DNA of 64,000 bases from sequence record OL739525.1. One strand, written 5' to 3'. The DNA is from Escherichia phage dw-ec. Position numbers and translations under genes: made by a program. Of the stretch, positions 825-14,633 are shown one piece after another (within the stretch, counting starts at the first letter, position 1; each line of letters starts with the position of its first letter). Under the pieces are notes generated by a model. That model had not been told where the DNA came from. It saw only the letters and a list, made by a program, of their open reading frames with translations, and did no database searches.

Positions 825-1169
825 ATGCAAGAGAGTAAAAATGTTCCGTTGAGTAGTTTACGTCTAATGAAGTTTTACAAAGCTTGGCTTGCTGGTGAGG
901 TAGAAGGTCACACAACGAGTGGTTTGTGCATATGTTTGATTAAGTATGTAGAGGGAACATACCCTGATGAACTGTTACCTCGTCTACAACAGGAGATGAA
1001 ATCACAGTTTATTAGTGCAGGACTAGATTACAATTTCCCGTTTAATGAAGGTGGTTATGAGGAATACACCTTCGAACATAAAAAACATATTTGCCATAAA
1101 AACAAACATCGTATACAATGGGTGCTAGATAGAATTCAGGATTACGAAGGAGAGAAAAATGACAAATAA
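825..1169 (+). CDS. hypothetical protein, paralog family A member 1
   Basis: RBS gagaggag before ATG; shared motifs FYKxWL, GLCxCL, PFN, CHxN..RIQWVxDRI. Confidence 0.65.
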   Translation: MQESKNVPLSSLRLMKFYKAWLAGEVEGHTTSGLCICLIKYVEGTYPDELLPRLQQEMKSQFISAGLDYNFPFNEGGYEEYTFEHKKHICHKNKHRIQWVLDRIQDYEGEKNDK

Positions 1170-1557
1170 TATTCCGTTGAGTAGTGCAGAATTGATTCGA
1201 TTCTACAAAGCATGGATGGCTGATCACTTCAGCATGGATCGCACGAAGAATGGTCTGTGCACTTGTCTTGTAAATTTCCTAGCTTCAACACTGCAACCTG
1301 AAAACCCGACAGAGGATCAATGGATAACCTACTTAAAGATACGTAATAAGATTGTAAGAGAGATGAAATCTCAATTTCTTTGTGCTAACCTGTCTTATGT
1401 CTTTCCATTTAATATGGGCTTCCAAGATTATGAAAATGAAGTCAAACACAAAAGGTGTCATGAAAACCCACTCCGTGTGCAATGGGTTAAGGACAGAATT
1501 GAAGATTGTTTGAATAATTATGAGGATGTGTTATGCGAACAAAACAAATCTCGTTAA
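1159..1557 (+). CDS. hypothetical protein, paralog family A member 2
   Basis: family A motifs (FYKAWM, GLCTCL, PFN, CHEN..RVQWVKDRI); start overlaps upstream stop. Confidence 0.65.
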   Translation: MTNNIPLSSAELIRFYKAWMADHFSMDRTKNGLCTCLVNFLASTLQPENPTEDQWITYLKIRNKIVREMKSQFLCANLSYVFPFNMGFQDYENEVKHKRCHENPLRVQWVKDRIEDCLNNYEDVLCEQNKSR

Positions 1558-1898
1558 GTAGTACAATGTTGTTGATGTTTTATAAAAGGTGGTTGGAAGG
1601 AGATACTTCCCTTAATCGCACAGAGCACGGGTTGTGTTTATGTATTAATCATTTTGTGCGAAGTCATTATGCAAAGGATGTGCACAGTCCTAGATGGTAT
1701 GATGACATGGTGAACAGTTTGTTATATGAAATGCGTAAGCAATTTGAGGAAGCTGATCTTAGTGCTATTAATCCATTTAACAAAGCATATGCAGATTACT
1801 TCCTTGAAGTTGAGAACAAAATGTGTCATCTGAATCCGCTTCGCATTCAGTGGGTGAAAGATCGCATTGAAGATGCAAATAATGCTTGCATTGAATAA
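1533..1898 (+). CDS. hypothetical protein, paralog family A member 3
   Basis: family A motifs (FYKRWL, GLCLCI, PFN, CHLN..RIQWVKDRI). Confidence 0.65.
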   Translation: MRTKQISLSSTMLLMFYKRWLEGDTSLNRTEHGLCLCINHFVRSHYAKDVHSPRWYDDMVNSLLYEMRKQFEEADLSAINPFNKAYADYFLEVENKMCHLNPLRIQWVKDRIEDANNACIE

Positions 1899-1957
1899 AA
1901 ATGTCTGTATAGTGGTTTGCATACCGCGCATAACAGATAGCCAATGAGGAGATTGAA

Positions 1958-2167
1958 ATGTCAAATATGAAAACTGTATCCTTGTATTTAGCTAACACTG
2001 ATCGTGTGCACACCCTTGCTAATGCAAGTCGTGTACTCGTGCAGTTCCGAAACTTCGCACCGTCCGTTGTGACAGGCAGTGAAACGTGTGTGATCGATTT
2101 CATCAATGAATATTTCCACGGGAATCCTGTTGCTCGTCACTTCGTGGAGAATATGAAAGATGCATAA
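1958..2167 (+). CDS. hypothetical protein
   Basis: ORF with RBS (ggagattgaaATG), dominant strand. Confidence 0.45.
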   Translation: MSNMKTVSLYLANTDRVHTLANASRVLVQFRNFAPSVVTGSETCVIDFINEYFHGNPVARHFVENMKDA

Positions 2168-2390
2168 CATGAAACGTATGAAAATTCGTATTGAGAATGA
2201 TGGTGGTTATAAAGGATTGGCACATGCAAAATTTCCACTTGTGTTGGAAGCTACAGTGGAATACAGTGGGCTTGCTCATGTGCGATTCTCGAAGATGATG
2301 GAAGTGCAGGAGTGGTTTTGGGACGAGATAGATGCACGAGAAGGGGAAGATTATGTTTTCTTTCCTCACGAATATGAAATTGTCTATTAA
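2160..2390 (+). CDS. hypothetical protein, paralog pair B
   Basis: shares MKIR start, EWF and DYVFF motifs with 6876..7097. Confidence 0.5.
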   Translation: MHNMKRMKIRIENDGGYKGLAHAKFPLVLEATVEYSGLAHVRFSKMMEVQEWFWDEIDAREGEDYVFFPHEYEIVY

Positions 2391-2393
2391 AGG

Positions 2394-2627
2394 TTGTGTG
2401 CAATGATCACACCACAACAGAACGAAGCAGCAATGGATCTTCTTGACAGTTTGTATTTCGATAATTGGTACTCTGAATGTGAATGGATGAATGTGCAAAC
2501 TCTGAAAGAGAAGACGGAAGCGTTGATTACAGTAGATCAATTTCTTGCAGAGACAGAAAGAATGAATTATGATATGGCATCTCGCGCACGACGCGTTTCC
2601 ATTTTCAATAAAATGTTAGCATTATAG
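2394..2627 (+). CDS. hypothetical protein
   Basis: ORF on dominant strand, tight spacing. Confidence 0.4.
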   Translation: MCAMITPQQNEAAMDLLDSLYFDNWYSECEWMNVQTLKEKTEALITVDQFLAETERMNYDMASRARRVSIFNKMLAL

Positions 2628-2638
2628 GGAGGTAGAAA

Positions 2639-3100
2639 ATGAGACAATTCACTATACTGGCAGCTTATGTGCAATGTGTTCACGATTATGTTAGTGCTCA
2701 TACAGGTTTGCTGGAAGTTACCAGTAAAATTGAAGGTAATATGGGTACTGTCTGTGTGCAACATACTTTATCCAATGTGCCGTTTAAAGTGTTCACTGTT
2801 GTAGCTGCCGATTACAATCGTGTAGATGTGCGTTTCTTGGATCATAATTTTCGTAACGCATTAGATAATATTGAAGATTATCTTCCCGTGAAACCTTTGT
2901 CATTTCCACCGAGTCGTGCAAATAATGTAGCGACAAACCTTAATGAAAGGAATGTGGCTATGCACAAAAAAGTCCGTCAACTGAAAACGCTGATGGAAAT
3001 GCAAGAAGAGATTGAAAAAGAACTGAAAGAAGATTTTGGTATGCTTCCAAAAGACGCTTTGAAATGGTATGATGAACTAGGAGGAGAAAGTTATGAATAA
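2639..3100 (+). CDS. hypothetical protein
   Basis: ORF with RBS gggaggtagaaaATG. Confidence 0.5.
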   Translation: MRQFTILAAYVQCVHDYVSAHTGLLEVTSKIEGNMGTVCVQHTLSNVPFKVFTVVAADYNRVDVRFLDHNFRNALDNIEDYLPVKPLSFPPSRANNVATNLNERNVAMHKKVRQLKTLMEMQEEIEKELKEDFGMLPKDALKWYDELGGESYE

Positions 3101-3287
3101 AGAAACTACTGTATATTTAGTGACTAAGAACACCCCAGGTTGGAGCCAATGCAGCACTGTTCCTTACAAGATCTGTGCAACACTGGAATTAGCACAACGT
3201 GCAGAAGCAGAAGTTGATGCTATGCGATACAGCTACGGTGAAATCATTCCTTTTACTCTTGAACAAGAAGGAGCACATCGTGTTTAA
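3093..3287 (+). CDS. hypothetical protein
   Basis: ORF with RBS ggaggag; overlaps upstream stop. Confidence 0.45.
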   Translation: MNKETTVYLVTKNTPGWSQCSTVPYKICATLELAQRAEAEVDAMRYSYGEIIPFTLEQEGAHRV

Positions 3288-3735
3288 AGTAGGGTTTACT
3301 TATAAATTCAAAAGTGTTGCTGACCAAGGAGCTATGGCAACACAGGACAAAGCAAATATTGCTGTTTGCCAAGCGATTGGAAACGAAGTTTTCAAAGTTA
3401 TGAATACAGATGATAAGTATGGTCATGTTCTTGAGTTTTATACCAATGGTACCCTTTATACAGCAGGTGTTACCCCAGGGTTTAATTCGTATACTTATTT
3501 GATTGATAACGAAGAATTTAAATATTTTGAAGAAGTAAAGGAGGAAACAATGGGTAAAGCAGAACCACAATGGCATGTTGTGATCGTAGGATCAGAGTGT
3601 GTAGATGTTTGTTCTAGTTTTGAAAAAGCTTCTGAAGTCGCTACAAAAGCTAAGAAGGATTATCCGTCGAAGACGGTTGAGATTTACGCTCGTGTTGCAG
3701 TAGCAAACGCCACAATCACTATTGATAAGGAGTAA
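3280..3735 (+). CDS. hypothetical protein, tandem paralog family C member 1
   Basis: probable GTG start at 3280 after RBS gaaggag (the track ORF 3199..3735 starts upstream in the same frame); N-terminus MFKVGFTYKFKS resembles the next two genes. Confidence 0.45.
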   Translation: MFKVGFTYKFKSVADQGAMATQDKANIAVCQAIGNEVFKVMNTDDKYGHVLEFYTNGTLYTAGVTPGFNSYTYLIDNEEFKYFEEVKEETMGKAEPQWHVVIVGSECVDVCSSFEKASEVATKAKKDYPSKTVEIYARVAVANATITIDKE

Positions 3736-3740
3736 AGCCA

Positions 3741-4196
3741 ATGTTCAAAGAAGGTCATGTCTACCGTTTCCAGGATGAAGATTATATGCAATTATATTCT
3801 ACCTTTGATAACAGTATGGCTGCTATCATTGGAGAGAATTTTTTCGAGGTGTTGAGCACTGATGCAAATGGTAATATCTTGTCAATTGTTGTGATAGGGA
3901 GAGACGGTATTATCACTGCTAGTGATGGGGATCGTTACATAATCAATTCTGCTCATATAGATTATTTTGTTGACGGTGGTATTCGTGGTAGTCGTGGAAA
4001 ACCCCAAGAAGAACCTGTTGATACAACAAAAGAAGAGTGGTATGTTGTAATGACTGATGACACCTGTATTTCTGGATTTGAAAGTTATGAAGAAGCTTTG
4101 AAAGAAGCAGCAGAGCATAAAATGGCTAATCCTACAGAAGAGGTTGAAGTTTATAAACGTTTGGTTGTTGCTACCATCGGCGTATCTTTTGTTTAA
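3741..4196 (+). CDS. hypothetical protein, tandem paralog family C member 2
   Basis: N-terminus MFKEGHVYRF and C-terminal WYVV..VEVYKRLVVA resemble neighbours. Confidence 0.5.
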   Translation: MFKEGHVYRFQDEDYMQLYSTFDNSMAAIIGENFFEVLSTDANGNILSIVVIGRDGIITASDGDRYIINSAHIDYFVDGGIRGSRGKPQEEPVDTTKEEWYVVMTDDTCISGFESYEEALKEAAEHKMANPTEEVEVYKRLVVATIGVSFV

Positions 4197-4208
4197 AAGG
4201 GGAATGTT

Positions 4209-4646
4209 ATGTTTAAAGTTAATGCTGTTTACTGTTTCAAAAGTAAAGCTGCCTGTGAAGCTTTCTCTATGATCTCTGATGAAAATTTCAAAATGGCAGC
4301 TTTGATTGAAGGGTCTTGTTTCCGCGTCGAAAATGTTAGTGAATCGGGGTCTGTTTGCTCATTGACTTTATTGGACAGTGGAGATATTATTGAAGCTGGA
4401 CAGTATCCGTTCAGGAGTTGGGAGATATTGTTAGCTCGCGGAGAGCGTAACTTTTTTATGTGCGTGTCTGCGGGGGAAGCTGTGAAAGAAACTAAGGATG
4501 TTTCTGTTTACAATTCTGAATTTATAAGTTATAGTGAGTATCAACATCTGGAAGGCATTGTTGGTCACTTGTTATCTCTGATTGACATTGAATGTGACCT
4601 GCCTGAATCATTGAAAGAAGAGTTGAAAGCATTAGATCTGCTGTAA
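4209..4646 (+). CDS. hypothetical protein, tandem paralog family C member 3
   Basis: N-terminus MFKVNAVYCFKS resembles 3280 and 3741 genes. Confidence 0.5.
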   Translation: MFKVNAVYCFKSKAACEAFSMISDENFKMAALIEGSCFRVENVSESGSVCSLTLLDSGDIIEAGQYPFRSWEILLARGERNFFMCVSAGEAVKETKDVSVYNSEFISYSEYQHLEGIVGHLLSLIDIECDLPESLKEELKALDLL

Positions 4647-4673
4647 TGTTTCGCACAACGAAAGGAGAATAAG

Positions 4674-4973
4674 ATGAATCTGACCGAACAGTTACGCCGT
4701 ATTGCAAAAGAAGCTTCCTTCAACTTCCCTGTTGAAGAAGTGATCGAGACATGTTTTGCTGAAGCACGAGCGGGAAACTCTTCAAGAAATTTCACGCCAT
4801 CCGATTTTGGTCTGAATAATTCTCCCACCCACCCAGAGCAGATCTACAATCAGGTGAAGTGGATGGATGAAGCAGTAGCAATTCTTCGTGAGCGTGGGCT
4901 TATTGTTTATAAAGAAATGGATCTGAACGGGGCATACGAGTGGATCACTATTGATTGGTCCGAGGTGAAATAA
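4674..4973 (+). CDS. hypothetical protein
   Basis: ORF with RBS aaaggagaataagATG. Confidence 0.5.
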   Translation: MNLTEQLRRIAKEASFNFPVEEVIETCFAEARAGNSSRNFTPSDFGLNNSPTHPEQIYNQVKWMDEAVAILRERGLIVYKEMDLNGAYEWITIDWSEVK

Positions 4974-5206
4974 TGAAAGGTAACAAGATGAAAGTTAATC
5001 AAGTGCCGAGCGCATACACTTTGTGGCTTGCGCGAGCATTACACCAGACGATCAAAAACCCTAAGAAGCCAATGAAGAGCGGGAAGAAGTTTATGTCTAA
5101 GGGCAAAACAACCTTTGGCTTCACTCGTATGTCTGTCAAGATGAAAAGGCTGGGGTACAAGCCAAACTACGCTCGTTACCCTTCTGAATACAACTGGTTT
5201 GACTAA
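4973..5206 (+). CDS. hypothetical basic protein
   Basis: ATG at 4973 after RBS gaggtg, overlapping upstream stop (TAATG); Lys/Arg-rich. Confidence 0.4.
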   Translation: MKGNKMKVNQVPSAYTLWLARALHQTIKNPKKPMKSGKKFMSKGKTTFGFTRMSVKMKRLGYKPNYARYPSEYNWFD

Positions 5207-5218
5207 AAGGAAAAAGCA

Positions 5219-5692
5219 ATGGCAGGTTTGAAACTGGAGATGTTGACAAAGCAAGAATTTGTTCCCGAACACGGTGAAACTTACATTGCTTTCTTGATTA
5301 GTGATTTTTATGGGGATTTAGAGTATGTTGAACTGGAGTGTGAGTTTCACTACCAAATGATCGACGCAGAAACTGGTTATTGTCTGGGTACGTCTGCGGT
5401 GTATAATGGTGATAATGGCATTCCTTTTCATACCCCAATGAGGTACGAAGCGAAAAACCGATTCAAACTTCTCACAGAAGAAGAAAAAGAGACATATAAA
5501 TATCACGAAGAGGAGGATCAACGCTTCTGGTGGGAGAAAACTTGGTTCCTGTCTGATCGCCGTAATCTTCAGATTCACCCAGAAGAACTGGATGAAATGT
5601 CTATTGGCATTATGAAGAAGAAAGACTTCATGTTCCAGGTGAGAGAAGCTAATAAGCTCCGTATTGCAATTAAAGAGGAGAACAAAATATGA
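5219..5692 (+). CDS. hypothetical protein
   Basis: ORF with RBS aaaggaaaaagcaATG. Confidence 0.5.
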   Translation: MAGLKLEMLTKQEFVPEHGETYIAFLISDFYGDLEYVELECEFHYQMIDAETGYCLGTSAVYNGDNGIPFHTPMRYEAKNRFKLLTEEEKETYKYHEEEDQRFWWEKTWFLSDRRNLQIHPEELDEMSIGIMKKKDFMFQVREANKLRIAIKEENKI

Positions 5693-5973
5693 AAACATCT
5701 ATTCGCGTAAAACATGATCCAAACAGCAGTTACCCATACGCGGATGTTGAACGTCATGAAGGAGACTATTACACCATAAAACGTAAAGTCCCAACTGATA
5801 CAGGGTTTAACTTTGATGTTATTGCGCTGGATGATCAAGGTGTTGATAATCTGGTGAACGCATTACTCGCATTGAAGGAAGTACGACATGAAAATCAGAC
5901 TAAAGGTAAAGTGGCTTTCGATTCTTGTGATCGTTTAGCCGAAGAGATTGCCGAATGGCGTGACACTAACTAA
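5689..5973 (+). CDS. hypothetical protein
   Basis: ORF with RBS aaagaggagaacaaaatATG. Confidence 0.5.
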   Translation: MKTSIRVKHDPNSSYPYADVERHEGDYYTIKRKVPTDTGFNFDVIALDDQGVDNLVNALLALKEVRHENQTKGKVAFDSCDRLAEEIAEWRDTN

Positions 5974-5988
5974 AACAGGAGAAAGATT

Positions 5989-6165
5989 ATGGCTACTTTT
6001 CAACAACTGAAAGATGTTTCACGTTTAGTAAGAAAAATCCGAGAAGCAGACGCTGCTGTGCGGAATGCACTAACGCCAGCAGAGCGTGAAGATCTTGAAG
6101 AGGAGGTGAAAACAGCCGAGAATGCTTTTGCTGTGTATCTTGCAACACTGCATACAGGAGGTTAA
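5989..6165 (+). CDS. hypothetical small protein (58 aa)
   Basis: unlisted short ORF with RBS acaggagaaagattATG filling an intergenic gap. Confidence 0.3.
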   Translation: MATFQQLKDVSRLVRKIREADAAVRNALTPAEREDLEEEVKTAENAFAVYLATLHTGG

Positions 6166-6471
6166 ATGTCAGAAGAACTTAAAGAATTTTATCAAGCATA
6201 TCATAACTGGCTGTTAGCTGGTGCTCCAGATAATAATCCTTTCTGGCATGATAAAGGATTATGTAGTTGCCTCTACCTTTGGACTGGAGGTTATGATGAT
6301 CTAAATTATGAAATGCAAATGCAATTCCGTGAGGCAGGATTGTCTGAAGAATACCCGTTTGATGACGGAGACTGGTTTAAATATGATTTTGCACAAAGAA
6401 ACGGGCTATTGCATTTGAATGCTGCCCGTATAAAATGGGTAAAAGACCATGCTACACAGGAGGATGTGTAA
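6166..6471 (+). CDS. hypothetical protein, paralog family A member 4
   Basis: family A motifs (FYQAYHNWL, GLCSCL, PFD, LHLN..RIKWVKD). Confidence 0.6.
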   Translation: MSEELKEFYQAYHNWLLAGAPDNNPFWHDKGLCSCLYLWTGGYDDLNYEMQMQFREAGLSEEYPFDDGDWFKYDFAQRNGLLHLNAARIKWVKDHATQEDV

Positions 6472-6671
6472 TGCCAATAGTGTTTAGTTTCTTAGTAATT
6501 GTTATGGTTGTTCTTTTCGCGGCATGGCTTTGGGATTTTGACCCAGGAGCAGCGCAGCAAAGAGCTACAGACTGGAAAGAACAATGTATTGTGCTCAAAC
6601 ATGAACGAAATGCGGAGAAATTTCTTGACCTAGAGTGTGATCGCCTTGTAAGATACAAGCAAGATAAATAA
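6471..6671 (+). CDS. hypothetical membrane protein
   Basis: ATG overlapping upstream stop; hydrophobic N-terminus PIVFSFLVIVMVVLFAAWLW. Confidence 0.4.
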   Translation: MPIVFSFLVIVMVVLFAAWLWDFDPGAAQQRATDWKEQCIVLKHERNAEKFLDLECDRLVRYKQDK

Positions 6672-6685
6672 CCTTGAGGTGCAAA

Positions 6686-6874
6686 ATGGTAATTGAGATT
6701 AAACTTGAATATGCTGGGGCTGTTGCTCTGATCGCACAAACGCTTGGAGCAAAGATTGAAGAAGTGTATATCAATGCCTGGAGCGTAGAGATTGATGTTC
6801 CTATGGACAGCATTGCTAATCGCTTGTTGGTGGCAGAGTGTGAACGCACCAACATAATCTACAAAGGAGCATAA
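6686..6874 (+). CDS. hypothetical protein
   Basis: RBS gaggtg then ATG at 6686. Confidence 0.4.
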   Translation: MVIEIKLEYAGAVALIAQTLGAKIEEVYINAWSVEIDVPMDSIANRLLVAECERTNIIYKGA

Positions 6875-6875
6875 T

Positions 6876-7097
6876 ATGAAAATTAGAGTTTGCGATGTAT
6901 TGGGTTATGTTGGTTTTGAGAATGTTCAGATTCCTTTTGTTGTTGAAGCACATCTTGTTAGCGATGACATGACAACATTCTTTGTTACGATAGAAGAAAT
7001 GTCCAAAGTTGAGGGATGGGAGTGGTTTGAAGAAGATGTTTGGGAAGGTTGTGATTACGTATTTTTCTCTGATGAAGTGAATGTTCTTTCGGAGTAG
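6876..7097 (+). CDS. hypothetical protein, paralog pair B
   Basis: MKIR start, EWF and DYVFF motifs shared with 2160..2390. Confidence 0.5.
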   Translation: MKIRVCDVLGYVGFENVQIPFVVEAHLVSDDMTTFFVTIEEMSKVEGWEWFEEDVWEGCDYVFFSDEVNVLSE

Positions 7098-7099
7098 GT

Positions 7100-7306
7100 A
7101 TGTCTTGTTTTACAAAAGCAGTGTCCATATGTAAGAAACAGTATGAAAGTGATTACGGAATATTTAATATTCCAGTGGATCATACGGAGTATTGTTCATG
7201 TGGTGGCAGAATGAAGAAAACAGTGATTTATGCGGATAATGGAGATGAACTTGTTCCGGTTATGGTTTGCAAAGCTTGTCATTCTGTTAAAACATTAAAA
7301 GCGTAA
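7100..7306 (+). CDS. hypothetical protein with 4-Cys zinc-ribbon-like motif
   Basis: CSCGG ... CKAC cysteine pairs. Confidence 0.4.
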   Translation: MSCFTKAVSICKKQYESDYGIFNIPVDHTEYCSCGGRMKKTVIYADNGDELVPVMVCKACHSVKTLKA

Positions 7307-9148: not shown

Positions 9149-9421
9149 ATGAATAAAGATCGGTTTCTTTCTTTAGTCGCGGAAGCGCCTTTTGATGTTC
9201 TTGGGGTGAGATTATGGAAAGACAGAAACTATGGGTTAGATGTTCAAACATATTCTCTTTGGTTGGTTGGGGAGCACAGCTTAGATGAAAGCTTGTGCAT
9301 GGGTAGGGATTCTCGTTCCCTTTGTTTAAAGTTTAGAAGCTTAGAACGCGCAAACAAAGAGCAAGAAAAACTAACGAGGTGGCTAAATGAAAACAAGCGC
9401 AGGGTTGATGGAGTTTTATAA
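9149..9421 (+). CDS. hypothetical protein
   Basis: ORF with RBS gaaaggtgg. Confidence 0.45.
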   Translation: MNKDRFLSLVAEAPFDVLGVRLWKDRNYGLDVQTYSLWLVGEHSLDESLCMGRDSRSLCLKFRSLERANKEQEKLTRWLNENKRRVDGVL

Positions 9422-9713
9422 AATTTATCTAGCATGGATTGATGTTGGTGCTCCTGATGGTAAACCTTTTCGGCGAGATTGCGGTTTGTGTGCCAATTTG
9501 TTCGATTATGTGCACGCAGATGGCTACAATCTCCTTATAACAACCTTGTCAGACGAAATGCACTCACAGTTTTACTACAAAGGGTTGAGTCAAGAACTCC
9601 CTTTCAATGAGAACTACGATGCATATGTCTTAGAATCAGATGCAGAGGTATGTCACCTGAACGTGGACAGGATTAATTGGGTAAGAGATCGTATTGCAGA
9701 GGAGGATGAATAA
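9387..9713 (+). CDS. hypothetical protein, paralog family A member 5
   Basis: family A motifs (FYKIYLAWI, GLCANL, PFN, CHLN..RINWVRDRI). Confidence 0.6.
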   Translation: MKTSAGLMEFYKIYLAWIDVGAPDGKPFRRDCGLCANLFDYVHADGYNLLITTLSDEMHSQFYYKGLSQELPFNENYDAYVLESDAEVCHLNVDRINWVRDRIAEEDE

Positions 9714-9942: not shown

Positions 9943-10155
9943 ATGTGGATTGTCCGTCTTAAGTATGATGGCAAGTTTCCGTGGGAGAAAGATGTTTGTG
10001 CCTGTGATTCAGCAGCACATGCCAAAGCAGCGGGTCAGGCAGTAGTTGACATGTATAACAACACCCCCTTTGATCCAGAAATGGCAGGTGTTACAATGAG
10101 CATGTTCACTTACTATTCTTTTGAGGTTTACTATCACGAAGGAGAGTGGAAATGA
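9943..10155 (+). CDS. hypothetical protein
   Basis: ORF with RBS ggaggaataagcATG. Confidence 0.45.
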   Translation: MWIVRLKYDGKFPWEKDVCACDSAAHAKAAGQAVVDMYNNTPFDPEMAGVTMSMFTYYSFEVYYHEGEWK

Positions 10156-10472
10156 GCGAAGAGCTATTAACATTTTACCGCACGTATTTGGCATGGTTGG
10201 AAGCTGGTGCTCCTGAAGGTGAACCGTTCACCCGTTGCACAGGTTTGTGCACGAACCTCTATGATTTTTACGACATAGGAGAAAGCGAACGATACGAACC
10301 TGTACTGGATGAAATGCATGAGCAGTTCTACCTCAAAGGTTTGGTTATGGTGTTGCCTTTCAACAGTAATTTTGGAAAGTACACCTTAGAAGCGGAAAAA
10401 GGCCGTTGTCATTTGAATGTGGATCGTGTGAACTGGGTAAAAGAACGTGTAGCAGAAGAAATAATTGGTTGA
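10146..10472 (+). CDS. hypothetical protein, paralog family A member 6
   Basis: family A motifs (FYRTYLAWL, GLCTNL, PFN, CHLN..RVNWVKERV). Confidence 0.6.
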   Translation: MEMSEELLTFYRTYLAWLEAGAPEGEPFTRCTGLCTNLYDFYDIGESERYEPVLDEMHEQFYLKGLVMVLPFNSNFGKYTLEAEKGRCHLNVDRVNWVKERVAEEIIG

Positions 10473-12589: not shown

Positions 12590-13012
12590 ATGAAACAAGA
12601 AAATGAATCTGTAGATCACTTAATCATGCTGTCAGCCCTTTTTGCCGGATGGGACGTATTTTTTGAAAATTTGTTCAATTCTGCTACAGATGGTTCCGAT
12701 TTTATGCGCCAGTTTAAACGACGAACTGTTGAGGACTATGCTTTCTATTCAGGTCGGATTGAAAAAGGTTACGAAGATACAAATACAACACTCACTATTA
12801 AAGTTTTAGATGTGATGTTTAGTGTTATAGATGCTATCGACGAAAGCCTTCCGATCCTAGACAATTGTAATACGAAAGCCTATGTTTACAAAATAGCTCG
12901 TGCTTATGTGTCTGCAAACAGTTGTCTTCTTTCCACCCAGATTGCCGTGAACAATCTTGCCAACTTGTTTGATGAAGGAGAAACTTTTTATGACAATCGA
13001 TTTGAAGTGTAA
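12590..13012 (+). CDS. hypothetical protein
   Basis: RBS ggagaggatATG. Confidence 0.45.
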   Translation: MKQENESVDHLIMLSALFAGWDVFFENLFNSATDGSDFMRQFKRRTVEDYAFYSGRIEKGYEDTNTTLTIKVLDVMFSVIDAIDESLPILDNCNTKAYVYKIARAYVSANSCLLSTQIAVNNLANLFDEGETFYDNRFEV

Positions 13013-13355
13013 GAGGATTCTTTTAGATTTCTATAATAATTGGTTAGAACACCTCCGTCTCTTTCCAAGAGAAAGTGGTTACGCTGATGTTGGCTTATGC
13101 CGAGGTCTGCGTATGTATATAAGTGATGAATTTCGGGCAGAGCATTCTTTAGCATATTCTGTTTATGGTATGCAATTAGCCAGTTTTGAAAACGCTGGCT
13201 TAGATACAACTTTCCCATTTAACACAGCAAAATCTTTTGAGCAAGAGTGTAAGGAAAAACGTTGTATGTTTAATGAAAAACGTGTACAGTGGGTTAAGGA
13301 TCGAGTTAAACAACTGGAACAAGAGTTGGATTTCTTCTATGATGAGGCAGAATAA
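12990..13355 (+). CDS. hypothetical protein, paralog family A member 7
   Basis: family A motifs (FYNNWL, GLCRGL, PFN, CMFN..RVQWVKDRV); start taken at internal ATG 12990. Confidence 0.55.
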   Translation: MTIDLKCKRILLDFYNNWLEHLRLFPRESGYADVGLCRGLRMYISDEFRAEHSLAYSVYGMQLASFENAGLDTTFPFNTAKSFEQECKEKRCMFNEKRVQWVKDRVKQLEQELDFFYDEAE

Positions 13356-14243: not shown

Positions 14244-14258
14244 CAGTTGCACCCCGTT

Positions 14259-14283
14259 CTGCGGGGTGTTATTGTATATGTAA
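14259..14283 (+). terminator. putative weak intrinsic terminator
   Basis: hairpin caccccg/cggggtg followed by TTATT. Confidence 0.35.
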
Positions 14284-14294
14284 AGGAGGCGCTA

Positions 14295-14633
14295 ATGTAT
14301 TACACTGAAGACTACATATTGTATAACTTTTTTAAAGGTTGGTTGAAATGGGCGGAACAAGCTCCTGTCGGAGATTGTGTTTTTCCTTGGGATTCTCGTC
14401 AAGGCTTGTGTCGTTGTTTGGAAGATTGGCTTATAACCACAAACTACAATTCAGAAACTAAGAAATCTACATCAAACAGATTAAAAATGTTGTTTGAAGA
14501 AGATGGTTTAGATCCAATTTATCCTTTCGGTGAGGAAAGTTTCCACAATGGTCTTTTCCTTGGCACTCAACATTATGATAAAGATCGTGTAGATTGGGTA
14601 AAAGAAAAGGTAGCACAGTATGAATGGGGTTAA
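14295..14633 (+). CDS. hypothetical protein, paralog family A member 8
   Basis: RBS aaaggagg then ATG at 14295; motifs FFKGWL, GLCRCL, PFG, RVDWVKEKV. Confidence 0.55.
   Translation: MYYTEDYILYNFFKGWLKWAEQAPVGDCVFPWDSRQGLCRCLEDWLITTNYNSETKKSTSNRLKMLFEEDGLDPIYPFGEESFHNGLFLGTQHYDKDRVDWVKEKVAQYEWG

What the first reader, a model, noticed from the sequence alone, without database searches (positions are those of the whole stretch)
3280..4646. Tandem triplication (family C) and a dispersed pair (family B) of small early genes
Three consecutive genes (3280, 3741, 4209) start with MFK and share a Y-x-F core, and the first two share a C-terminal W[HY]VV ... VE[IV]Y.R[VL].VA segment. Separately, 2160..2390 and 6876..7097 share an MKIR start and EWF / DYVFF motifs. 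With family A, this shows the early region evolves by repeated local duplication and divergence.
Basis: seen in the sequence. Interest (0 to 1): 0.45.

Follow-up and report, generated by a model that had tools for sequence, protein, structure and literature searches.

The report
Variable array of GoF-like phage genes
The three neighbouring small genes are real but ancient relatives of the phage T4 protein GoF, sitting in a slot of a phAPEC8-like E. coli phage where closely related phages carry one to four such genes; this is a modest extension of a known, functionally unsolved family.

Summary
C1 (3280-3735), C2 (3741-4196) and C3 (4209-4646) share an ~88-aa N-terminal domain (shuffle z 9-11). 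C1 and C2 also share a ~59-aa C-terminal domain (z 13). C3's C-terminus is unrelated. B1 (2160-2390) and B2 (6876-7097) are homologous (E 3e-13).

The window is a Phapecoctavirus (phAPEC8-like). Family C belongs to the T4 GoF/Frd.2/MotB.1 family described in 2025 (PMC12152347). Support: hhalign 93.7% to GoF, an HMM built without T4 sequences scoring GoF at E 5e-15, and an AlphaFold model whose best PDB neighbour is FeoA, as published for GoF.

The paralogues are old (25-32% identity) and do not cluster with each other in a tree. The same gene order occurs in a divergent lineage. Eleven near-identical genomes carry one to four genes here, including a two-N-domain fusion and a hybrid gene. Every indel junction lies in a short repeat, either at the gene starts (ATGTTYAAAG) or in the linker.

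Family B is a small protein restricted to these phages, with a weakly supported SH3-like fold, and is not detectably related to C.

Function is unknown. RNA or host-factor binding is inferred only from GoF. This is a new member of a known kind, of modest interest.

The parts
3280..3735 (+). C1: 151-aa GoF-family protein (GTG start). N-terminal domain aa 1-88 (nt 3280-3543), low-confidence linker aa 89-94, C-terminal domain CTDa aa 90-148 (nt 3547-3723).
   Evidence: AF2 mean pLDDT 85. Present in only 4 of the 11 genomes compared.
3741..4196 (+). C2: 151-aa GoF-family protein. N-terminal domain aa 1-79 (nt 3741-3977), CTDa aa 92-150 (nt 4014-4190).
   Evidence: Matches phrog_3710 at 9.6e-33.
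4209..4646 (+). C3: 145-aa GoF-family protein. N-terminal domain aa 1-88 (nt 4209-4472) and an unrelated C-terminus CTDb (about nt 4494-4643).
   Evidence: Matches phrog_22975 at 4e-99. Present in all 11 genomes compared. dN/dS 0.06-0.22.
3268..3333 (+). 5' repeat of C1: ribosome-binding site, start codon and first ~18 codons. It is similar to the 5' end of C3 and of the N-N-C gene found in relatives.
   Evidence: D4/D5 in the window; D1/D6 in L005, where a 45-nt repeat is 76% identical. The ukendt indel junction maps here.
4197..4262 (+). 5' repeat of C3. Sequence up to ATGTTTAAAGT is identical to the sequence upstream of the N-N-C gene of ECO340P1, and the rest is C3. This is the junction of an N-N-C-sized indel.
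2160..2390 (+). B1: 76-aa family B protein (MKIR at 2178).
   Evidence: (phrog_15322, 1.5e-41). dN/dS 0-0.15.
6876..7097 (+). B2: 73-aa family B protein.
   Evidence: (phrog_15322, 2.5e-44).

Best explanation
SHOWN
- The window is a phAPEC8-like E. coli myophage (Phapecoctavirus, Stephanstirmvirinae).
- C1, C2 and C3 are three anciently diverged paralogues of the T4 GoF/Frd.2/MotB.1 family. Each has an ~88-aa N-terminal SH3-topology beta-barrel with two helices inserted after strand 1 (signature MF.....Y.F ... F.V ... G ... YF.E), a flexible linker and a C-terminal domain.
- C1 and C2 share a small beta-beta-alpha-beta C-terminal domain (CTDa). This is the commonest C-terminus in this branch of the family. 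C3 has a different C-terminus.
- The genes occupy one hyperplastic slot between a conserved 153-aa gene and a conserved 99-aa gene. In phi92 this slot lies just inside the left terminal repeat.
- Genomes that are about 84-99% identical in the flanks carry one to four family members there, including a fused N-N-CTDa gene and a C2::N-N-C hybrid.
- Every indel junction lies in a short direct repeat. Some are at the shared gene starts (ribosome-binding site plus ATGTTYAAAG..., 14-45 nt) and one is in the shared QEEP linker (about 14 nt). Recombination between paralogues therefore adds, removes and fuses cassettes in frame.
- C3 is always kept and is under purifying selection. C1, C2 and N-N-C are dispensable.
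- B1 and B2 are paralogues of a 70-aa protein seen only in these phages.

INFERRED (probability about 0.3)
- Like T4 GoF, these are non-essential, abundant early proteins.
- The barrel would act as a binding module for RNA or for a host RNA-metabolism or transcription factor. The variable C-terminal domains and the copy number would tune this to the host.
For: Identity of the phage: 99.1% to Escherichia phage ETEC-TG, with 110 matching records that are mostly Phapecoctavirus.

Homology within the window.

Link to GoF:
- PHROG hits to 'goF mRNA metabolism modulator' families and to phrog_622, 3710 and 5347.
- hhalign of the family profile against T4 GoF: 93.7%, E 1.9e-7, GoF residues 5-89.
- hhalign against Frd.2: E 2e-4.

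Fold:
- AF2 model with pLDDT about 90 over the N-domain and below 50 in the linker, residues 89-94.
- 79 BFVD matches at E<1e-3, mostly uncharacterised proteins of T4-like phages.

Cassette variation and junctions.

Conserved slot: phi92 gp001-gp003 just inside the left terminal repeat, and phiWec188.

Selection.

GoF biology (early, abundant, non-essential; the D25Y mutant stabilises RNA post-transcriptionally): PMC12152347.
Against: - No function is known even for wild-type GoF. In PMC12152347 only the D25Y mutant, and neither wild-type GoF nor MotB.1, stabilised RNA.
- The positions equivalent to GoF D25 and G84 are not conserved across the family.
- Early expression was not shown. The sigma-70 promoter scan was at background level: 28 sites found against 24 expected.
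- dN/dS values rest on 7-15 substitutions per gene pair.
- Similarity to MotB.1 is marginal.
Confidence: 0.75

Rival explanations
1. The array was not built by local duplication in this lineage. Already diverged GoF-family genes were brought into one permissive slot by recombination with other phages, using the conserved 5' ends as landing sites.
For: - The N-domain tree is star-like, and C1, C2 and C3 each have closer relatives elsewhere than within the array.
- Cassettes are demonstrably exchanged or lost at the 5' repeats.
Against: - Adjacent genes sharing both domains (C1/C2, and the two genes of phiWec188) are most simply explained by tandem duplication.
- The N-N-C then C3-like order is conserved in a divergent lineage.
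- An 88-aa tree at about 30% identity has little resolving power.
Confidence: 0.3
2. The proteins are host-range or counter-defence accessory factors. The SH3-like barrel would bind a host protein, not RNA. The variable copy number would reflect an arms race with host defences.
For: - Presence or absence varies among genomes about 84-99% identical in the flanks.
- C-terminal domains are modular, and fusions N-N-C and N-N-N-C (P0032) exist.
- C1 shows relaxed dN/dS of 0.35-0.71.
Against: - There is no similarity to any known anti-defence protein.
- The only experimental phenotype in the family concerns mRNA level or stability (PMC12152347).
Confidence: 0.3
3. Family B is a highly diverged, helix-less relative of the family C N-terminal barrel, so B and C would be one superfamily.
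For: - Both end in an aromatic Y.FF..E strand.
- One metagenomic protein (P0023) joins a B N-terminus to a C-family C-terminus at a shared EGWF motif.
Against: - hhalign of B against C gives a probability of 0.5%.
- P0023 comes from a single 1.3-kb contig with coverage 0.75 and may be an assembly chimera.
Confidence: 0.1
4. The similarities are chance or compositional, arising among short AT-rich ORFs.
For: None, beyond the low identity (25-37%).
Against: - 0/1000 shuffles reach the observed score for any within-family pair, while cross-family controls are at chance.
- The families are recovered independently by PHROG profiles and by an exhaustive HMM search.
Confidence: 0.01

Closest known systems
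T4 GoF / Frd.2 / MotB.1 family of 'LSm-like fold' early proteins (Kim et al. 2025, PMC12152347)
   Same: - Homologous N-terminal domain of about 85-90 aa.
- Same predicted SH3-topology barrel, with FeoA as nearest PDB neighbour.
- N-domain, flexible linker and variable C-terminal domain.
- Several paralogues per genome, in a large virulent myovirus of enterobacteria.
   Different: - Found here in Stephanstirmvirinae, whereas the paper describes the family in Tevenvirinae.
- Members are tandem in one slot, not dispersed.
- Copy number is polymorphic (1-4) among near-identical genomes.
- Fused N-N-C forms exist, and a conserved beta-beta-alpha-beta C-terminal domain (CTDa) not present in GoF.
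- No experimental data exist for these proteins.
FeoA and the DtxR/IdeR C-terminal SH3-like domain (CATH 2.30.30.90)
   Different: No sequence similarity and no Pfam FeoA hit. There is no metal-binding histidine pattern and no iron-transport context. This is a fold resemblance only.
PeSL-mediated modular shuffling in hyperplastic regions of T4-type phages (Arbiol et al. 2010, PMC2839356; Comeau et al. 2014, PMC4122927)
   Same: Small early ORFs of unknown function are gained and lost as cassettes between close relatives, by recombination at short conserved repeats flanking the ORFs.
   Different: The repeats here are the ribosome-binding site plus the first codons of homologous genes, or an in-frame linker. 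They are not promoter/stem-loop motifs. Recombination can therefore produce in-frame hybrids and fusions. No enrichment of promoter or terminator motifs was found.
PHROG families phrog_15322 and phrog_13367 (family B)
   Same: B1 and B2 match phrog_15322 at 1e-41 to 1e-44.
   Different: The PHROG family has no function or description. One GenBank record labels a B2 orthologue 'protein ea8.5', which nothing here supports.

Membership tests
GoF/Frd.2/MotB.1 family (PMC12152347) | Sequence homology of the N-terminal domain to T4 GoF and Frd.2 | tested here: met
   hhalign to GoF 93.7%, E 1.9e-7. HMM built without T4 sequences: GoF 5e-15, Frd.2 3.7e-7. PHROG goF families hit at 2.6e-4 to 9.5e-3. 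MotB.1 is only marginal: E 1e-3, probability 19%.
GoF/Frd.2/MotB.1 family (PMC12152347) | Predicted N-domain fold: bent five-stranded antiparallel sheet of SH3 topology, nearest PDB neighbours FeoA-type domains | tested here: met
GoF/Frd.2/MotB.1 family (PMC12152347) | N-domain joined by a flexible linker to a variable C-terminal domain | tested here: met
   pLDDT below 50 at residues 89-94. CTDa in C1 and C2 against CTDb in C3.
GoF/Frd.2/MotB.1 family (PMC12152347) | Early expression; non-essential | not testable with these tools
   Indirect only. The slot is just inside the left terminal repeat in phi92. C1, C2 and N-N-C are absent from some viable isolates. The promoter scan was uninformative.
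GoF/Frd.2/MotB.1 family (PMC12152347) | Effect on mRNA stability or RNA binding | not testable with these tools
   Shown only for GoF(D25Y) in PMC12152347. The D25-equivalent position is variable in the family.
Pfam PF03197 (FRD2) | Score at or above the gathering threshold (29 bits) | tested here: not met
   C1 scores 16.2 bits. C2 and C3 give no hit. Relatives score 14.6-16.5 bits. T4 Frd.2 itself scores 133 bits. T4 GoF has no Pfam or NCBIfam model.
Sm/LSm (Hfq-like) proteins proper | Structural neighbourhood to Hfq/Sm proteins; ring oligomers | tested here: not met
FeoA (Pfam PF04023) | Sequence match to the FeoA profile | tested here: not met
   No Pfam hit at E <= 1. Only fold similarity, at 13% identity.
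ClpS-like adaptor (for CTDa) | Sequence or full-domain structural match to ClpS | tested here: not met
PeSL cassettes of T4-type phages | Conserved early promoter plus stem-loop motif flanking the shuffled ORFs | tested here: not met
   The junction repeats are ribosome-binding site plus 5' coding sequence, or linker codons. Promoter-like and terminator-like sites are at shuffle level.
phrog_15322 (family B) | Full-length profile match | tested here: met
   B1 1.5e-41 and B2 2.5e-44, both end to end.
SH3-like small beta-barrel (family B fold) | Significant structural match to SH3/KOW domains | tested here: inconclusive

The most novel reading that the evidence does not exclude
The conserved gene starts (ribosome-binding site plus ATGTTYAAAG...Y.F codons) and the QEEP linker are maintained as in-frame recombination sites, not merely left over from common ancestry. 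The slot would then act as a combinatorial shuffling locus that swaps, stacks (N-N-C, N-N-N-C) and hybridises SH3-like binding modules and C-terminal effector domains. This would let these phages quickly retune an early host-takeover or counter-defence function to new hosts.
Probability: 0.2. Interest if true: 0.55.

Novelty: new member of a known kind. Interest (0 to 1): 0.3.

Why it matters
- It extends the recently described GoF/Frd.2/MotB.1 family beyond T4-like phages to Stephanstirmvirinae, which includes phAPEC8/phi92-type phages used in therapy work.
- It defines the family signature and a second conserved domain (CTDa).
- It shows natural 'knock-outs', fusions and hybrids among near-identical isolates. 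That gives a ready-made comparative panel for finding the still unknown function of GoF-like proteins. C3 is the member to study first because it is always retained and is under purifying selection.
- It gives a clear example of in-frame cassette recombination at conserved gene starts.
- It does not reveal a new kind of system.

Tried and rejected
1. More family C or B members elsewhere in the 64-kb window. None were found with the 3-sequence, iterated or non-T4 HMMs.
2. Pfam, NCBIfam and PDB sequence searches for C and B. Only sub-threshold hits appeared: DUF2782, DUF7336, FRD2 and a designed protein.
3. The 64-aa gene upstream of C1 (3093-3287) as a free-standing CTDa domain, suggested by a similar beta-beta-alpha-beta pattern. 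HMM E 4.2 and hhalign probability 0.2%. Rejected.
4. Homology between family B and the family C N-domain. hhalign probability 0.5%. Not supported.
5. Duplication of an A-x-B gene block (A3-69aa-B1 against A4-78aa-66aa-B2). The intervening genes show no similarity. Not supported.
6. Promoter and terminator scan to support 'early' expression or PeSL-like motifs. Results were at background.
7. P0039 (899 aa) and P0043 (497 aa) from the exhaustive search. These are repetitive, unrelated proteins matched only over short stretches and were discarded.
8. The B::C chimera P0023 as evidence for shuffling. It is encoded on a single 1.3-kb contig with coverage 0.75, so it was treated as a possible assembly artefact and not used.
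9. Mapping the GoF suppressor positions D25 and G84 onto the family. Both columns are variable, so this is uninformative.
10. Literature on this cassette in Phapecoctavirus. Nothing was found.

Full report
**What the window is.** Bases 2000-7300 are 99.1% identical to Escherichia phage ETEC-TG. They match 110 phage records, mostly Phapecoctavirus (phAPEC8-like myoviruses, Stephanstirmvirinae). Positions 1 to about 19,500 are tightly packed small + strand ORFs. In the related phage phi92 the homologous genes are gp001-gp003, which lie just inside the 343-bp left terminal repeat.

**Check of the observation.** All five ORFs exist.
- C1 begins with GTG at 3280, 7 nt after AAGGAG. The same codon is ATG in ECO340P1.
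- BLASTP: C1-C2 4e-15 over the full length; C1-C3 1e-6 over residues 1-85; C2-C3 0.003; B1-B2 3e-13.
- With 1000 shuffles the z-scores are 23.3, 9.7, 7.8 and 16.0, and no shuffle reaches the observed score. C-vs-A and C-vs-B controls are at chance.
- Splitting the proteins shows an N-terminal domain common to all three (z 9-11) and a C-terminal domain common only to C1 and C2 (z 13). C3's C-terminus is unrelated (z about 0).
- No further C or B members occur in the 64 kb.
- Family A has eight members, not four.

**What family C is.**
- PHROG profiles link the N-domain to phrog_3710, 622 and 5347, and to two families named 'goF mRNA metabolism modulator'. Pfam gives only sub-threshold hits, including FRD2.
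- A profile of C1-C3 and their relatives aligns with T4 GoF residues 5-89 at 93.7% probability, E 1.9e-7. It aligns with T4 Frd.2 at E 2e-4 and marginally with MotB.1.
- An HMM built only from non-T4 N-domains scores GoF at 5e-15, Frd.2 at 3.7e-7 and MotB.1 at 5e-3.
- The AlphaFold2 model of C1 (mean pLDDT 85) has a beta-barrel N-domain with two helices after strand 1, a disordered linker (residues 89-94) and a beta-beta-alpha-beta C-domain.
- Kim et al. 2025 (PMC12152347) describe exactly this for T4. [quoted passage not shown] The proteins are early, abundant and non-essential. Only the GoF(D25Y) mutant stabilises an mRNA.
- Family C is therefore a set of GoF-family proteins in a phage subfamily outside the Tevenvirinae treated in that paper. 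A few GenBank records already carry automatic 'goF' labels on C2, C3 or the N-N-C gene.

**Size and shape of the family.**
- An exhaustive HMMER search of 1.84 billion representative proteins finds only 35 at E <= 1e-3.
- Structure search of viral models finds 79 at E < 1e-3, mostly in T4-like phages and all uncharacterised.
- Across 42 N-domains the conserved positions are M1, F2, Y8, F10, N26, I33, F38, V40, G48 and F83 (C1 numbering), mostly hydrophobic residues. The GoF suppressor positions D25 and G84 are variable.
- CTDa (consensus ..[YW]hVh...s.eeA..A...K...P...VEIY....A...V) occurs in 22 of the sequences examined.
- Multi-N forms exist: N-N-C (261 aa in ECO340P1, 258 aa in P0019) and N-N-N-C (P0032).

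**Is it a local triplication?**
- The paralogues are 25-32% identical and share no nucleotide similarity apart from their first ~45 nt.
- In an NJ tree of N-domains they do not cluster together. C3 is nearest to P0026 (41%), C1 to P0003/P0005 (52-54%) and C2 to P0016/P0018/P0019.
- P0026 lies on metagenomic contigs directly downstream of an N-N-C gene. The gene order therefore predates these lineages.
- phi92 has a single N-CTDa gene in the same slot, and phiWec188 has two.
- Tandem duplication is a reasonable origin, but it is ancient and cannot be separated from acquisition of already diverged members.

**What varies today.** Domain HMMs were run on eleven genomes whose flanks are about 84-99% identical. 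The slot contents are:

| Genome(s) | Genes in the slot |
|---|---|
| window, tuntematon, WPEC1 | C1, C2, C3 |
| ECO340P1 | C1, C2, N-N-C, C3 |
| phAPEC8_ev052, vB_Ec-G1 | C2, N-N-C, C3 |
| ukendt | N-N-C, C3 |
| SF1-1, SKA64 | C2, C3 |
| phAPEC8 | C2::N-N-C hybrid, C3 |
| MirsaeidiM_Esher1 | C3 only |

- Mapping each genome on ECO340P1 shows that neighbouring alignment blocks overlap by 11-35 nt at every junction. The breakpoints therefore lie in short direct repeats.
- These repeats are the ribosome-binding site plus the first codons of the genes. One junction lies instead in the linker codons CAAGARGAACC (QEEP) and produced the in-frame phAPEC8_0024 hybrid.
- In the window, the sequence upstream of C3 and its first 11 nt are those of the N-N-C gene, and the remainder is C3.
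- C3 is retained everywhere and has dN/dS of 0.06-0.22. B1 has 0-0.15. C1 has 0.35-0.71, on few substitutions.

**Family B.**
- B1 and B2 (37% identity) both match phrog_15322 end to end.
- Homologues are confined to these phages.
- SF1-1 carries an extra adjacent copy.
- Profile comparison with family C is at chance, probability 0.5%.
- Function is unknown.

**Mechanism.**
- Shown: homology, fold prediction, domain architecture, slot conservation, copy-number polymorphism and recombination junctions.
- Inferred (about 0.3): these are early, accessory host-takeover proteins whose barrel binds RNA or a host RNA-metabolism or transcription factor, as suggested for GoF.
- An equally plausible alternative (about 0.3): protein-binding accessory or counter-defence factors, which would fit the presence/absence pattern.
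- Neither reading can be tested with sequence tools.

**Comparison with known systems.**
- The cassette behaviour resembles PeSL-mediated shuffling in T4-type hyperplastic regions (PMC2839356, PMC4122927). Here, however, the repeats are coding 5' ends and linkers rather than promoter/stem-loop motifs, and no enrichment of promoter or terminator motifs was found.

**Verdict.** This is a new member of a known, functionally unsolved family, with a tidy example of in-frame cassette recombination. Interest is modest.

Noticed in passing
window 825-1169, 1159-1557, 1533-1898, 6166-6471, 9387-9713, 10146-10472, 12957-13355, 14247-14633 (+): Family A (phrog_2510) has eight paralogues in the window, not four, at 27-52% identity. 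Members A1-A3 share a GLCxC ... C-H ... R[IV]QWV.DRI pattern that could be a metal site.
   Followed up: partly
window 3093-3287 (+): The 64-aa gene just upstream of C1 is part of the variable slot. It is absent from phAPEC8_ev052, SKA64, vB_Ec-G1 and phAPEC8. Its secondary-structure pattern resembles CTDa, but no sequence relation was detected.
   Followed up: yes
window 4976-5700 (+) and the equivalent parts of loci L001 and L006-L011: Further indels occur downstream. The 157-aa gene (5219-5692) is missing in tuntematon, ev052, Ec-G1, ukendt, SKA64 and phAPEC8, and extra 69-74-aa genes are inserted after the 99-aa gene in several relatives. The whole left arm is hyperplastic.
   Followed up: partly
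L002 (Shigella phage SF1-1) 1083-1331 and 1318-1539: SF1-1 has two adjacent family B genes where the window has one (B1). Family B copy number therefore also varies.
   Followed up: partly
P0023; L017 870-1295: A 141-aa protein joins a family B N-terminus to the C-terminal part of the N-N-C protein at a shared EGWF motif. It is encoded only on one 1.3-kb metagenome contig with coverage 0.75, so it may be an assembly chimera.
   Followed up: partly
window 1533-2390 and 6166-7097: The order 'family A gene, then unrelated small gene(s), then family B gene' occurs twice (A3-69aa-B1 and A4-78aa-66aa-B2). The intervening genes are not similar.
   Followed up: yes
search hits: Records named Campylobacter phage B15 and C3, Acinetobacter phage vB_AbaM_ABPW7, Klebsiella phage ZCKP1 and Pseudomonas phage PsgM04F match this region of an E. 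coli phage (B15, ABPW7 and ZCKP1 at about 96-98% identity; C3 and PsgM04F at 89% and 73% over short stretches). The host labels of the near-identical records look doubtful.
   Followed up: no
window 2639-3100 (+): The conserved 153-aa gene that bounds the slot on the left is annotated in phi92 and SKA64 as 'predicted transcription-repair coupling factor fold'. Here Pfam TRCF is only a sub-threshold hit (E 0.094).
   Followed up: partly
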